A stretch of DNA of 64,000 bases from Octopus vulgaris (lineage: Eukaryota): the NCBI GenBank assembly GCA_951406725.2, contig OX597842.1, forward strand, positions 16,244,001-16,308,000, written 5' to 3'. Made by a program: the position numbers. Positions within the stretch are counted from its first letter, which is position 1; the number at the start of each line of letters is the position of its first letter. This document shows, piece after piece, positions 21,330-27,314 of this stretch.

Positions 21330-24031
21330 CATATATATATATACACATATATACATATACATATATATATATATATACATTTATATATATATACATATAT
21401 ATCTATATATATGTATATATATGTTGTGTGTGTGTGTTTGTCTGTGTGTCTGTGTTTGTCCCCCCCAACATCGCTTGACAACCGATGCTGGTGTGTTTAC
21501 ATCCCGAAACCTAGCGGTTCGGCAAAAGAGACCGATAGAATAGTAGTAGGCTTACAAAGAATAAGTCCTAGGATCGATTTGCTCGACTAAAAAGTGGTGC
21601 TCCAGCATAGCCACAGTCAAATGACTAAAACAACAAGTAAAAGAGTAAAAGAGTGAAAGAGAAATCTTATGCACAAGACTTACAGAAAACTTAACCCGGG
21701 AAAATCATCGAAAGTTCCAACTGGAATTGTCTTGATATTATTTTTCATCAAATCTCTGTAATATAAAAGGTTAGTTTATATGATTTCGTAGGGAAAAATT
21801 TTATTGTAAAACATTATTATCAGTGAAATATTCATAAAATAGAATGTAAGATGATAAACTGTGTCTAGGGAGAGTCATTTTCTTTTTGTGCATTATAATC
21901 TAACACACTCACCGGTAAAATTTCCACTTATTTCTTATTTTTATTTTCCTAAAAATTCTTTGTTGCGTCTTGCAAAAATTTCAATAGTCTTGAAAAGGTA
22001 GCAAGATTCAAAGAAAATTTTAGGAAAATAAAAATAAGAAATACGTGAAATTTTACCGGTGAGTGTGTTACATTATAAGGCAAAAAACAAAATGACTCTC
22101 CCCAGACACAACGGAATATGTTTCAACACACAAACTCATATAAAGAATCTTGCAAACCAAATCCAAAAACGAAATGATGAGAACTGTTTCTCATAAACTG
22201 GAAAATACTGAAGAAAAATTGATGTAGGAGAAAAAAGTAGATGATAATGATGATGATAATATGAAGAATGAGAATATGAAGCCGGAGGGAAGGATGGTGA
22301 TGGAAGTGGTCGTAGTGGTGTGGGTGAATATATGGAAGTGGCTGTGGATAAGAGAATAGTGGTAGGGTTGATGATGCTAATGCCGCTGCTGGTGATGACC
22401 ATGAAGTTTGTGGTAACGATGCTGATGACGATAATTCTGGCAATGATGATGATGATGATGGTGAGAATGAAAACGATGATGTTTTTTTTTAATAAAAATG
22501 AAAAGAAAAAAATAAGACTTCAAAACTTTAGTGTGAATGAATTCTAGCTGACGGACTGAAACATGATTATAGTATAGTATCATATTTATCCTACTTTATA
22601 TTGAATAATATGTCGTCTATTTACATTTTATGCATGCTAGGCCACTGGTAGTGAAATTTGTAAAACTTTACTACCCTATATAAATATCTAAGTATCGATA
22701 TTAGCTTTCCAAAGTTCGTTTCGGCATTTTTCATTTTCTGCCGAGGAAGACAAAGAAGAAGAAGGAGAAGGAGGAGGAGAAGAAGAAGAAGGAGGAGGAG
22801 GAGAAGGAGGAGAAGAAGACGGAGGAGGAGGAGGAGAACAAGAAGAAGGAGAATGAGGAGGAGAAGAAGAAGAAGAAGAAGAAGAAGAAGAAGAAGAACA
22901 AGAACAAGAACAAGAAGAAGAAGAATATGGTGATGGCAATGATAATGCGAATGAAGACCTAAGTTATTGCGATGGCCTCAAGGAAGAGTGGACAAAGTAG
23001 AAGAATAGGAGAGCAAAAACAACAAAAACAAAAATGAAATTTTTGTTTTTGTCTGAATTTTTGTCTAATTTTTTGTTTTATTGGCGTCTGAATTATCTGG
23101 GGCTAAATATACAGCTACAAGCGTTATTCAAGGATGTTATTTAGTGTTTATGTAGATTAAATTGATGTTTGGGTAGACATTACAGAATTAGAAAGATATC
23201 GTCAATGAAATTTATATAAAATAAGATTGTTTCAACTTACAGAGTTTTTAAACTGGAAAGATTTTGAAAGGCTTCCTCATTGATTTCCAGGATATCGTTA
23301 CTACTCAAATCCCTGCAATATGAAACAGTATTAAGAAGAAAATTTATGGAACAAAGAAGGGGAAGGGAAGAAGAAGAAAAGTAGAAGAAAAAGAGAGGGG
23401 AAGGGAGGAGAAGAAAATAAAGAGAAAAGAAGAAAAAGAAGAAAATAAATAAGAAGAAGAAGGAAAAGAAAAAGAAAAAGAAGGAGGAGGAGGAGAAGGA
23501 TAAGAAGAAGAAGAAGAATGAATTCTAGTTGACGGACTGAAACATGATTATAGTATAGTATCATATCGTCAATGAAGTAATATAAAAAAAAGTATTCTCC
23601 AACTCACAGCTGTATTAAAGTGGAAAGATTTCGGAATGTTTCTACTTTGATTTCTTTGATTTTATTACCACGCAAATCCCTGTCAAAAATAATTGTTTTA
23701 AAAATAGAATTATAAGATGGCGATCATGAAGCAGAATTAAAACACGTAATAGTATTAACAGAACTGAAAGATAAATGAAAGGATTAAAGGAAGAAAATTA
23801 AAGGTGGAAAATAAATAGGTGCAAGAGGAAAGGTAGAAGAGATGGAGAATTTTATCCTACATTATATTGAATAATATGTTGTCTATTTACATTTTATGCA
23901 TTCTAGGCCACTGGTAGTGAAATTTGTAAAACTTTACTACCCTATAAAAATATCTAAGTATCGATATTAGCATTCCAAAGTTCGTTTCGGCATTTTTCAT
24001 TTTCTGCCGACTGAAATGTACTATAATTTAA

Positions 24032-24121
<90 letters not shown>

Positions 24122-25235
24122 ATAAAAATGTCTGTGTATTTGAAGTGGTGTCTCTCTCTCTTCCATAAAATGGAGCGAAAACGTGATGGATGACAATAAA
24201 GATGGCGGAGGAGAAGAAGGAGGGGAGGAAATGCAGAAGACAGAGAAAGAAGAAGAAGAAGAAAGAAAGAAAATAGTAGAAAGAGAAGGAGCAATAGGGG
24301 AAAGAAAATATGAAAATTGAGGACAAGAAGATGTCAAAGGCGAAGAAAAGAAGAAAACAAGAACAACAACAATTACACATTTCCCCCGATGTAATGGAAG
24401 AATGAGGAGGAGAAGAAGAAGCATGATGCCAAGAAGAAAACGATGAAGAGGGAGGAGAAGAAGATGATGAAGAAGAGTAAGTAGAAGGACAAGAAAACGA
24501 AGAAGATGATGACAAAAAACGGAAGAAGAAAAAGAAGACGTAGAAGAAAACGAAGAAGAATACGAAGAACAAGAACAACAAGAAGAATATGAAAAAGAAG
24601 AAAATAAAATGCAAGCCAAGGAAAAGAAAAAAGGGAAGAAAAAAGACAAAATAGAAGAAGAAGCTGTAGAAAATTAAGAAGATGAATTAGAAGTATGAAA
24701 ATAAAACGAATGATTTTAAGAGGAAGGAGAATAGTAGTAGTTAGAGGAGGAATAAGTGAAAGAAAGTACAAAATGGAGAAGTCAAAGGGGAGGAAGAGTG
24801 AGGGGGAAGAAAAGATGTCTAAAATACATTCATATTAATAACGTACTCCTGAAAAATGTAATTAGTAGGGAGAGTCATGGATGGTAATCACCGTTGTTTT
24901 AGAGATAAATGCAGTAAATAATATACAGATAGAAATCGAAACACAAACAGAAACGCTCTTATAGATTCGCTCATAAAAAAAACACATACACACACAGACA
25001 CACACACACACGTAATTCTGTATATACACTTTTACTCTTTTACTTGTTTCAGTCATTTGACTGCGGCCATGCTGGAGCACCGCCTTTGGACGAGCAAATC
25101 GACCCCGGGACTTATTCTTTGTAAGCCCTGTACTTATTCTATCGGTCACTTTTGCCGAACCGCTAAGTGACAGGGACGTAAACACACCAGCATCGGTTGT
25201 CAAGCAATGCTAGAGGGACAAACACACACACACAA

Positions 25236-25290
<55 letters not shown>

Positions 25291-25868
25291 TACGACAGGC
25301 TTCTTTCAGTTTCCGTCTACCAAATCCACTCACAAGGCATTGGTCGGCCCGGGGCTATAGCAGAAGACAGTCGCCCAAGCTGCCACGCAGTGGGACTGAA
25401 CCCAGAACCATGTGGTTTGTTAGCAAGCTACTTAACACACAGCCACTCCTGCGCCTATATACCAATACATTTATATTATGACACATTTGCAGACACTCTT
25501 ATTTGCAGGCATTCACAAGCAATCACACATTACTATCTGGGGTGATTGAGCATATAAGGAGAAACAAGGGAGGCACGCGACACAAAATGGGGAAATATAT
25601 TAAATACTTAGTAATATATTCCCAAAGAAATATTTTCAACAAGACTTAGGTAACTTACAGATCTATTAAACTGGGAAGATCATCGAAAGTTCCTACTTGA
25701 ATTTTGTCGATATTATTTTTAGCCAAGAGTCTGTAATATAAAATGTTAGTTGATAGGGTTATGGAGAGAGGATTATTGTAAAATATTATGATTAGCGAAT
25801 GTTTATAAAATACAATGTAAGATGACGAGAAGTGTTTTCTGATGAACTATAAAATACTGTTAGAAAAT

Positions 25869-25899
<31 letters not shown>

Positions 25900-27314
25900 T
25901 AGTGAAGAACCACCATATAGCAATTCAACAATGATATAATTAAATCATACCATATAGAGAAATATGATACGACAAAACATTTAACTAGAACTAAATAAGG
26001 TACGAAATAACAAATAGATAGTACATAGTAAATAGACTACACGTGTGTCGTAGCAATATTTTCAAACCGATAACAGTAAAATCAATTCAATTTAAATATA
26101 GTCACTCATCAGGTCCAAGTTAAAAACAATAAAATAATTAAATAAATGTGCTTATATTACCTTATAAGAAAATATATATAAAGTATATATAAAAATACGT
26201 AATTTTGCAATAAAAATCGAACAAAATTCAACAATTTATCTTCAACAAGAAGAAGAAGAAGATCAAGAAGAAGAAAGAAGAAGAAGAAGAAGAAGAAGAA
26301 GGAGAAGAGGAAGAAAAAAGAAGTAGAAGAAGAAAAAGAAGAAGGAGGAGGAGGAGGAGGAGGAGAAGAAGAAAGAAGAAGAAGAAGAAGAAGAGGAAGA
26401 CAAAGAAGAAGGAGAAGGAGGAGGAGGAGAAGTAGAAGAAGAAGAAGGAGGAGGAGAAGGAGGAGAAGAAGGAGGAGGAGGTGGAGAACAAGAAGAAGGA
26501 CAATGAGGAGGAGAAGAAGAAGAAAAAGAAGAAGAAAAAGAAGAAGAAGAATAAGGAAAAGAAAAAGAAGAAGAAGAAGAAGAAGAAGAAGAAGAAGAAG
26601 AAGAAGAAGAATATGGTGATGGCAATGATAATGCGAATGAAGACCTAAGTTATTGCGATGGCCTCAAGGAAGAGTGGACAAAGTAGAAGAATAAGAGAGC
26701 AAAAACAACAAAAACAAAAATGAAATTTTTGTTTTTGTCTGAATTTTTGTCTAATTTTTTGTTTTATTGGCGTCTGAATTATCTGGGGCTAAATATACAG
26801 CTACAAGCGTTATTCAAGGATGTTATTTAGTGTTTATGTAGATTAAATTGATGTTTGGGTAGACATTACAGAATTAGAAAGATATCGTCAATGAAATTTA
26901 TATAAAATAAGATTGTTTCAACTTACAGAGTTTTTAAACTGGAAAGATTTTGAAAGGCTTCCTCATTGATTTCCAGGATATCGTTACTACTCAAATCCCT
27001 GCAATATGAAATAGTGTTAAGAAGAAAATTTATGGAACAAAGAAGGGGAAGGGAAGAAGAAGAAAAGTAGAAGAAAAAGAGAGGGGAAGCGAGGAGAAGA
27101 AGAAAAAGAAAACGAAGAATGGGTGTAGTAGAAGAAGAAGAAGTGGAAGAAGAAGAAGAAGAAGAAGAAGAAGAAGAAGAAGAAGAAGAAGAAGAAGAAA
27201 AAGAAGAAGGAGAAGAAGAAGAAGAAAAAGAAAAAGAAGAAAAAGAAGAAGAAGGAGAAGAAGAAGAATAAAAAGAAAAAGAAGAAGAAGAAGAAAAAGA
27301 AGAAGAAGAAGAAG

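What the first reader, a model, noticed from the sequence alone, without database searches (positions are those of the whole stretch)
22535..27100. Exon turnover caught in the act: tandem duplication of a 3-exon block, with two deletions leaving one identical extra LRR
Seen: 22535-23415 is a near-identical copy of 23516-27100 that lacks two segments. One corresponds to 23567-23851 (285 nt, containing LRR exon 3) and the other to 24011-26394 (about 2.4 kb, containing LRR exon 2). The second junction shares a GA microhomology. The net result is LRR exon 4, identical to exon 1. The junction between the two copies lies in a GAA-rich tract. Inference: replication template switching or duplication-deletion adds and removes whole LRR units.
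Basis: seen in the sequence. Interest (0 to 1): 0.7.

Follow-up and report, generated by a model that had tools for sequence, protein, structure and literature searches.

The report
Patchwork duplication adds one LRR exon
In an octopus receptor gene built from one-repeat exons, a recent 981-base patchwork copy of neighbouring sequence has added one extra, identical leucine-rich-repeat exon; it is a clean but ordinary case of how such arrays grow.

Summary
22535-23415 is a co-linear copy of three pieces of 23516-27101: 50/51, 154/159 and 422/425 matching bases in the non-repetitive parts. It lacks 285 nt (holding LRR exon 23608-23679) and 2384 nt (holding LRR exon 25659-25730). Junction microhomologies are T, GA and GAA. 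Exon 23241-23312 is 72/72 identical to 26927-26998.

All are minus-strand, 72-nt, phase-1 exons of an array of 12 LRR exons plus an LRR C-terminal cap exon. The downstream exons match an Octopus vulgaris "adhesion GPCR G6-like" protein at 94-100%.

The short copy is the derived one. I favour a single replication-based event with three template switches (MMBIR/FoSTeS-like) at GAA tracts. One sequence cannot separate them. An assembly or haplotype artefact is less likely but not excluded.

No annotated protein carries the duplicated exon, so its use in mRNA is unproven. The case is a new instance of a known kind and of modest interest. The array also holds a dead exon and a conserved intronic element next to nine LRR units.

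The parts
22535..22585 (.). a': short-copy piece 1, copy of 23516-23566
   Evidence: 50/51 identical. No other copy in the window. The left edge abuts unique sequence.
22586..22744 (.). b': short-copy piece 2, copy of 23852-24010. It joins a' with a 1-nt (T) overlap.
   Evidence: 154/159 identical (searches give 96.9% of 160). No other copy in the window.
22745..22925 (.). g': purine-rich (GAA/GGA) tract of the short copy, copy of 26395-26611. It joins b' with a GA overlap.
   Evidence: 169 matches, 9 mismatches, 4 gap events. TRF finds an AAG array at 22753-22925.
22926..23415 (.). c': short-copy piece 3, copy of 26612-27101. It carries LRR exon E4 and its intron flanks.
   Evidence: 422/425 over 22926-23350, then 67/70 over 23351-23420.
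23241..23312 (-). LRR exon E4, the extra unit: 72 nt, phase 1, AG/GT intact, identical to E1
   Evidence: 72/72 identical to 26927-26998. Splice dinucleotides checked. LRR_8 hit at E=4.5e-4, below the curated cutoff.
23416..23515 (.). Junction filler between the two copies: a purine tract of uncertain origin that ends directly on the GAA... start of segment a
   Evidence: Sequence. Homology to the long copy fades after 23415. A low-complexity 86% match to 26511-26612 is not interpretable.
23516..23566 (.). a: long-copy segment. Its last 4 nt complete the conserved intronic element of the E3 unit.
   Evidence: The element at 23563-23576 has 0 mismatches.
23567..23851 (.). X: 285 nt absent from the short copy. 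It holds LRR exon E3 (23608-23679, minus strand).
   Evidence: Offsets 981 and 1266. Its best other match is 87% over 118 nt, to the E6 unit at 20210-20327.
23852..24010 (.). b: long-copy segment. It ends in a 6-bp-stem hairpin whose last base is the breakpoint.
   Evidence: DNA fold -5.0 kcal/mol, z=-2.28, 4 of 200 shuffles as good.
24011..26394 (.). Y: 2384 nt absent from the short copy. It holds microsatellites, purine tracts, a SINE (about 25021-25459) and LRR exon E2 (25659-25730, minus strand).
   Evidence: Offsets 1266 and 3650. SINE matches. The E2 unit is 79% identical to the E7 unit and 78% to the E5 unit.
26395..27101 (.). g plus c: long-copy source of g' and c'. It carries LRR exon E1 (26927-26998, minus strand).
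27053..27920 (.). (GAA)n tract of about 289 units flanking the long copy. It reads as (UUC)n upstream of E1 in the transcript sense.
   Evidence: TRF score 1269.
4173..21755 (-). Rest of the LRR array in the window:
- E5 21684-21755
- E6 20252-20323
- E7 18938-19009
- dead exon 16486-16558
- E8 12906-12977
- E9 10719-10790
- E10 8489-8560
- E11 7754-7825
- E12 5944-6015
- LRR C-terminal cap exon, about 4173-4342
   Evidence: Motif and HMM scans. Splice sites. tblastn of P0001 and P0002. Dead exon.

Best explanation
The segment is a real and recent intragenic rearrangement. It lies in the LRR-exon array of an octopus adhesion-GPCR-type gene on the minus strand.

One replication-based event with serial template switches (MMBIR/FoSTeS-like) probably made it. 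After a fork problem at or near a GAA/TTC tract, the nascent strand re-primed about 3.6 kb back, at the GAA tract beside E1. It then copied the E1 unit (c and g), jumped over 2384 nt to b, jumped over 285 nt to a, and resumed normal synthesis.

The result is a 981-nt patchwork insertion (22535-23515). It contains exactly one LRR exon (E4), identical to E1, placed between E3 and E5.

Every LRR exon here is 72 nt and phase 1, and 10 of 11 end in CT. The split codon therefore reads Leu whatever exon follows. If spliced in, the extra exon adds one 24-residue repeat without disturbing the reading frame.

Shown: the structure, the junction overlaps, the exon identity and the intact splice dinucleotides. 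Inferred: the single-event origin, the role of the GAA tracts and the use of E4 in mRNA.
For: - Three co-linear copied pieces with two skipped segments, at 97-99% identity.
- Short overlaps at all three novel junctions: T, GA and GAA.
- Two of the three junctions lie in GAA-type tracts.
- This matches the pattern in the MMBIR model abstract (PMC2621351, abstract read): discontinuous duplications mixed with deletions, and microhomology of 2-5 bp.
- GAA repeats are sites of complex rearrangements in yeast (PMC5741057, abstract and introduction read).
- One event is more parsimonious than three events within about 1.4% divergence (9 mismatches in 635 non-repetitive nt).
- The short pieces differ more from their source (a+b 6/210) than the long piece does (c 3/425). 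This fits low-fidelity synthesis near switches, but only weakly (Fisher p=0.066).
- Segment b ends exactly at the foot of a hairpin (z=-2.28).
- The short copy is the derived one. E2 and E3 are old units (at most 87% and 81% identical to anything else in the window). The a'|b' junction also cuts through an intronic element that is intact next to nine LRR units.
- The duplication is younger than every SINE pair in the window (at most 96.0% identical).
Against: - A single sequence cannot tell one event from three. Duplication followed by two microhomology deletions gives the same letters.
- One junction overlap is only 1 nt.
- The hairpin at the end of a is not better than shuffles (z about 0).
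- The divergence difference between pieces is not significant at 0.05, and gene conversion or constraint around the exon could also explain it.
- No reads were available to confirm the assembly.
- No annotated protein contains the E1/E4 peptide (0 of 22 candidates at E<=10) or E8 (0 of 12). The closest model, P0001, starts in E10. Exon use is therefore unproven.
Confidence: 0.45

Rival explanations
1. A simple tandem duplication of the whole 3.6-kb block (E1-E2-E3) formed, with its junction in the GAA tract. Two later independent deletions, of 285 nt and 2384 nt, occurred in the downstream copy. Each removed one LRR exon.
For: The final sequence is the same. Each deletion junction has a 1-2 nt overlap typical of end-joining or slippage. 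Tandem repeats are unstable. The unequal mismatch density (a+b 2.9% against c 0.7%) could reflect later gene conversion around the exon.
Against: It needs three events within about 1.4% divergence. Both deletions must fall in the same copy. No trace of an intermediate exists in the window. Nothing in the data calls for this scenario over a one-step origin.
Confidence: 0.3
2. Assembly artefact. The short copy is the other haplotype's allele, carrying two deletions, or a chimeric read wrongly placed in tandem through low-complexity GAA sequence.
For: The junction lies in low-complexity sequence. The 1-3% divergence between copies is in the range of allelic differences. No reads could be examined.
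Against: There are no Ns in the window. The junction joins a purine tract directly to the first base of a, and omits the unique sequence that precedes a' at 22534. An overlap-based false join has no shared sequence to use there, so reads must contain this novel junction. The copies are not identical, so this is not a simple duplication error.
Confidence: 0.12
3. E4 is an old exon of an ancient E1-E2-E3 / E4-E5-E6 block duplication that was homogenised with E1 by gene conversion. Alternatively, X and Y were inserted into the long copy.
For: The exon types recur in order. E2 resembles E5 and E7, and E3 resembles E6 (87% over 118 nt). The 317 nt around the exon carry no mismatch.
Against: Under an old block duplication, b' should lie between E5 and E6 and a' after E6. 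Both instead lie directly after E4. X and Y have no near-identical source in the window (best 87% and 81%). Each carries a correctly oriented, spliceable old exon in its expected place in the array.
Confidence: 0.05

Closest known systems
MMBIR/FoSTeS complex copy-number changes (Hastings, Ira and Lupski 2009, PMC2621351; abstract read)
   Same: Discontinuous duplication mixed with deletions. Very short microhomology at every junction. Endpoints at or near repeats that can stall forks.
   Different: This case is a fixed or segregating germline change in an octopus, about 1 kb in size, seen only as a final sequence. One overlap is 1 nt, below the quoted 2-5 bp. A single-event origin is not demonstrated.
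Tandem exon duplication in animal genes (PMC9013439 and PMC9741552; search listing and abstract starts only)
   Same: Neighbouring homologous exons of equal length and phase arose by local duplication.
   Different: Those studies mostly concern old duplicates used as mutually exclusive exons. Here the copies are identical, would be additive (one more repeat), and their splicing is unknown.
Octopus-specific expansion of adhesion GPCRs (Ritschard et al. 2019, PMC6408891; passages read, group 3: LRR in 5 of 22 sequences)
   Same: The window's downstream exons match an O. vulgaris protein named adhesion GPCR G6-like, which carries 7tm_2 and GPS domains. The ectodomain bears LRRs.
   Different: That paper treats whole-gene duplication. 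Here the change is inside one gene's LRR array. Membership of their group 3 was not tested, and their supplementary tables were not consulted.
(GAA)n-induced rearrangements in yeast (McGinty et al. 2017, PMC5741057; abstract and introduction read)
   Same: The breakpoints lie in GAA/TTC tracts.
   Different: The yeast events start from experimentally placed long repeats and involve large-scale rearrangements. Here the causal role of the tracts is an inference from position only.

Membership tests
Leucine-rich repeat (Pfam LRR_8 type) | Profile match to the LRR family | tested here: inconclusive
   9 of 11 single-exon peptides hit LRR_8 at E 4.5e-4 to 0.047. All fall below the 27-bit curated cutoff, as expected for a single 23-residue repeat. 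The exons were not joined.
Leucine-rich repeat (Pfam LRR_8 type) | The xLxxNxIxxIxxxxFxxLxxLxxL pattern repeated every 24 residues, followed by a Cys-rich C-terminal cap | tested here: met
   The pattern was found in 10 exons by regex and in 11 by a local HMM. A four-Cys cap exon lies at about 4173-4342. The consensus itself is recalled.
Adhesion GPCR | GPS/GAIN domain plus a 7tm_2 domain in the same protein | not testable with these tools
   That part of the gene lies outside the window. The nearest annotated protein, P0001, carries PF00002 and PF01825. It matches window exons at 94-100% over residues 1-129.
MMBIR/FoSTeS-type complex rearrangement | Discontinuous duplication interspersed with skipped segments | tested here: met
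   Three copied pieces, with 285 nt and 2384 nt skipped.
MMBIR/FoSTeS-type complex rearrangement | Microhomology of 2-5 bp at junctions | tested here: inconclusive
   The overlaps are T (1 nt), GA (2 nt) and GAA (3 nt). Overlaps this short are also common by chance and in end-joining.
MMBIR/FoSTeS-type complex rearrangement | All junctions formed in one event | not testable with these tools
   This needs population or sister-species alleles, or a pedigree.
Tandem exon duplication | Adjacent homologous exons of the same length and phase with intact splice sites | tested here: met
   E4 equals E1 at 72/72. All 11 exons are 72 nt with AG...GT.
Tandem exon duplication | Both copies are included in transcripts | not testable with these tools
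   No RNA data were available. No protein in the collection carries the E1/E4 peptide.

The most novel reading that the evidence does not exclude
The array may be a self-renewing cassette system. Each unit would consist of a long TTC/TCC tract, a 72-nt phase-1 exon ending in CT, and a conserved intronic element of about 45 nt.

On this reading, the GAA/TTC tracts repeatedly trigger template-switch birth of LRR units (E4), while other units die (the dead exon at 16486-16558). This would give the octopus-specific adhesion GPCRs fast-changing ligand-binding ectodomains. The conserved intronic element would control which cassettes are spliced in.
Probability: 0.12. Interest if true: 0.6.

Novelty: new member of a known kind. 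Interest (0 to 1): 0.3.

Why it matters
LRR ectodomains change binding specificity by gaining and losing repeats. Very young events whose breakpoints can still be read base by base are rarely seen.

This one shows how a single in-frame repeat can be added by a patchwork copy at GAA tracts. It lies in a receptor family that has expanded specifically in octopuses. It also gives concrete junctions that can be typed by PCR in populations.

It does not change what is known about exon duplication.

Tried and rejected
- **First motif scan:** a regex for the full LxxLxLxxN motif found no real exons, because the motif is split across exon borders. It was replaced.
- **Old block duplication plus gene conversion:** rejected because a' and b' lie in the wrong places.
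- **X and Y as insertions:** no near-identical source in the window.
- **Complementary docking-site copy of the conserved intronic element:** none found. All 9 matches with at most 2 mismatches are on the minus strand beside LRR units. The total of 14 matches with at most 3 mismatches is what chance gives (13.4 expected).
- **Hairpins at both skip points:** only the one at the end of b stands out.
- **Protein searches for annotated models carrying E1/E4 or E8:** nothing found. These are weak negatives, because only 24 residues of each query are exonic.
- **Pfam scan of 129 long open frames across the window:** only repeat-element fragments passed a curated cutoff. No further exons of this gene and no 5' signal-peptide or LRRNT exon were found.
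- **The 93% match 7562-7707 / 22032-22175:** it is a palindromic MITE-like repeat, not a second patchwork copy.
- **Corrected errors:** a coordinate slip and a query under the size limit were corrected and re-sent.
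Full report
**Observation**

- 22535-22585 matches 23516-23566 at 50/51.
- 22586-22744 matches 23852-24010 at 154/159.
- The purine-rich 22745-22925 matches 26395-26611 with 169 matches, 9 mismatches and 4 gap events.
- 22926-23350 matches 26612-27036 at 422/425.
- Homology continues to about 23415/27101, with 67/70 over 23351-23420.

The three offsets (981, 1266 and 3650 nt) mean that the short copy lacks exactly 285 nt (23567-23851) and 2384 nt (24011-26394). The novel junctions share T (a'|b'), GA (b'|g') and GAA (purine tract|a). 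Segments a and b have no other copy in the window. The unique part of c has only 74.7-77% matches to older LRR units.

**What the pieces are**

All relevant exons lie on the minus strand. A motif scan and a local HMM find 11 LRR exons of 72 nt. Each has AG and GT, and each is built as one base, 23 codons, then two bases. Ten of the 11 end in CT, so the split codon reads Leu whatever exon follows.

In gene order the exons are:

| Exon | Coordinates |
|---|---|
| E1 | 26927-26998 |
| E2 | 25659-25730 |
| E3 | 23608-23679 |
| E4 | 23241-23312 |
| E5 | 21684-21755 |
| E6 | 20252-20323 |
| E7 | 18938-19009 |
| E8 | 12906-12977 |
| E9 | 10719-10790 |
| E10 | 8489-8560 |
| E11 | 7754-7825 |
| E12 | 5944-6015 |
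| Four-Cys C-terminal cap exon | about 4173-4342 |

Nine of the 11 single-exon peptides hit Pfam LRR_8 at E<=0.05. All fall below the curated cutoff, as expected for one repeat. E4 is 72/72 identical to E1. X holds E3. Y holds E2, a SINE (about 25021-25459) and microsatellites.

Each exon was searched on its own.

**The gene**

The cap exon finds 5 of 5 candidates, all from Octopus. The best is P0001, named 'adhesion G-protein coupled receptor G6-like [Octopus vulgaris]'. It is 945 aa, 98% identical to the cap exon, and carries 7tm_2 and GPS domains.

tblastn places P0001 residues on the window as follows:
- residues 1-18 on E10 (100%);
- residues 19-42 on E12 (96%);
- residues 26-98 in one alignment across the cap exon (79%), whose start runs upstream of the exon;
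- residues 97-129 on 1291-1193 (94%).

The window therefore holds this gene or a very close relative. An octopus-specific expansion of adhesion GPCRs, some with LRRs (5 of 22 sequences), has been described (PMC6408891, passages read). I did not test membership of that group or read its supplements.

P0001 starts at a Met inside E10 and skips E11. No protein in the collection carries the E1/E4 peptide (0 of 22 candidates at E<=10) or the E8 peptide (0 of 12). E1-E9 are therefore unannotated, and their use in mRNA is open. No 5' exon was found in the 129 long frames scanned.

**Which copy is derived**

- E2 and E3 are old units. X is at best 87% identical over 118 nt, to the E6 unit. Y is at best 79-81% identical, to the E7 unit. 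Both sit where the array's alternation of exon types expects them. The pattern E2~E5~E7 and E3~E6 is read by eye from the peptides.
- A 14-nt intronic element lies 26-32 nt downstream of nine LRR units. All 9 matches with at most 2 mismatches are of this kind. At E3 the element spans the X|a border intact, whereas the short copy keeps only its last four bases.

The long copy is therefore the original and the 981-nt short copy (22535-23515) is the new one.

An ancient three-exon block duplication followed by gene conversion is rejected. Under it, b' and a' should lie after E5 and E6, but they lie directly after E4.

**Mechanism**

Two readings give the same letters.
1. One replication-based event. 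Synthesis re-primes in the GAA tract beside E1, copies c and g, switches to b, switches to a, then resumes.
2. A full tandem duplication followed by two deletions in the same copy.

I favour the first, for four reasons.
- It needs one event instead of three within about 1.4% divergence (9 mismatches in 635 non-repetitive nt).
- It matches the published signature of MMBIR: discontinuous duplications mixed with deletions, and microhomology at junctions (PMC2621351, abstract).
- Two of the three junctions lie in GAA-type tracts, which are known sites of complex rearrangement in yeast (PMC5741057, abstract and introduction).
- Segment b ends exactly at the foot of a 6-bp hairpin (z=-2.28, 4 of 200 shuffles as good).

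Four points count against leaning hard on this.
- One overlap is only 1 nt.
- The hairpin at the end of a is no better than shuffles.
- The higher mismatch density in a+b (6/210) than in c (3/425) is not significant (p=0.066). Gene conversion or constraint could also explain it.
- A single sequence cannot count events.

**Artefact**

I could not examine reads. The novel junction joins a purine tract directly to the first base of a, and omits the unique sequence that precedes a'. An overlap-based false join has nothing to align there. There are no Ns, and the copies differ at 1-3% of sites. I put an assembly or haplotype artefact at about 0.12.

**Age**

The copies (97-99% identical) are younger than every SINE pair in the window, which reach at most 96.0%.

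**Consequence**

If spliced, E4 adds one 24-residue repeat, identical to the first repeat in the window, between E3 and E5 and in frame.

The same array also shows exon death. A unit at 16486-16558 has a 1-nt insertion and a GT-to-TT donor relative to E7 and E2. Turnover of units in this array is therefore supported in both directions.

**Comparison and novelty**

This is a new and very young instance of known processes: tandem exon duplication, LRR number change and template-switch rearrangement. I rate it a new member of a known kind, with interest 0.3.

The boldest reading not excluded is that GAA/TTC tracts and the conserved intronic element make the array a cassette system with recurrent unit birth and regulated inclusion. 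In support:
- Older homologous units are also bounded by GAA tracts. For example, the E7 unit lies between the AGA array at 18347-18492 and the purine-rich stretch around 19173-19680 seen in the open frames, and it matches the E2 unit.
- The first 50 intronic nt after the donor are as conserved among units (64.7%) as the exons are (66.7%). Identity is 52% further on and 48% for random 50-mers.

**Not checked**

- No eukaryotic genome, read or RNA collection was available.
- The supplementary tables of PMC6408891, which may list this gene, were not consulted.

Noticed in passing
7714-7727, 10676-10689, 12863-12876, 16446-16459, 18895-18908, 20206-20219, 23196-23209, 23563-23576, 26882-26895 (minus strand): A conserved intronic element (TTCATTGACGATAT, 0-2 mismatches) lies 26-32 nt downstream of the donor of nine LRR units. 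The first 50 intronic nt are as conserved among units (64.7%) as the exons are (66.7%). No complementary copy was found in the window. Its function is unknown.
   Followed up: partly
16486-16558 (minus strand): A dead LRR exon. Relative to the E7 and E2 units it has a 1-nt insertion that shifts the frame, and its donor GT is changed to TT. Its downstream intronic element is still present.
   Followed up: yes
All 11 72-nt LRR exons, 7754-26998: Ten of the 11 exons end in CT and one ends in TT. The codon split across every intron therefore reads Leu with any following exon. This makes the units freely interchangeable in frame.
   Followed up: yes
8488-8541, 7754-7825: The closest annotated protein (P0001, O. 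vulgaris) starts at a Met inside E10 and skips the apparently intact E11. A paralogue model (P0003) starts in intronic read-through just upstream of its E10-type exon. The family's 5' ends look poorly annotated.
   Followed up: partly
23608-23679 versus 20252-20323: E3 and E6 differ at 8 nt in 6 codons. All 6 changes are amino-acid changing and none is silent. The central IKEIKVETFRNLS core is identical. The numbers are too small for a test.
   Followed up: no
21860-22110; also 7485-7707 and 38832-38964: A palindromic MITE-like repeat of about 250 nt, 85% self-complementary, has copies elsewhere in the window. One lies just downstream of E11.
   Followed up: partly
23987-24010: A 6-bp-stem hairpin (-5.0 kcal/mol, z=-2.28) ends exactly at the b|Y breakpoint. 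The equivalent site at the end of a shows nothing.
   Followed up: yes
8790-9095, 13892-14235, 18347-18492, 22753-22925, 26247-26611, 27053-27920: Long GAA/AAG-type arrays on the plus strand recur in the introns of the LRR array. They read as pyrimidine tracts in the transcript. GC skew is strongly positive from 8 to 28 kb.
   Followed up: partly
2521-3751, 12104-12508, 25021-25459, 28462-28901, 31750-32104, 45117-46273, 47616-47915, 50447-50684: Many copies of one SINE-like repeat are present, 88-96% identical to each other.
   Followed up: no
56892-58664: A trinucleotide tract of about 1.6 kb is extremely AT-rich (GC 16% in 56-58 kb). It reads as poly-N, poly-I or poly-Y in open frames.
   Followed up: no
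48417-48713 (-), 15680-15916 (+), 49644-49904 (+): Fragments of mobile-element or other genes lie upstream of and inside the array. They are a DDE_3 transposase piece (E=3.3e-7), DUF7083 (E=9.1e-7) and a weak C2H2 zinc-finger match.
   Followed up: no
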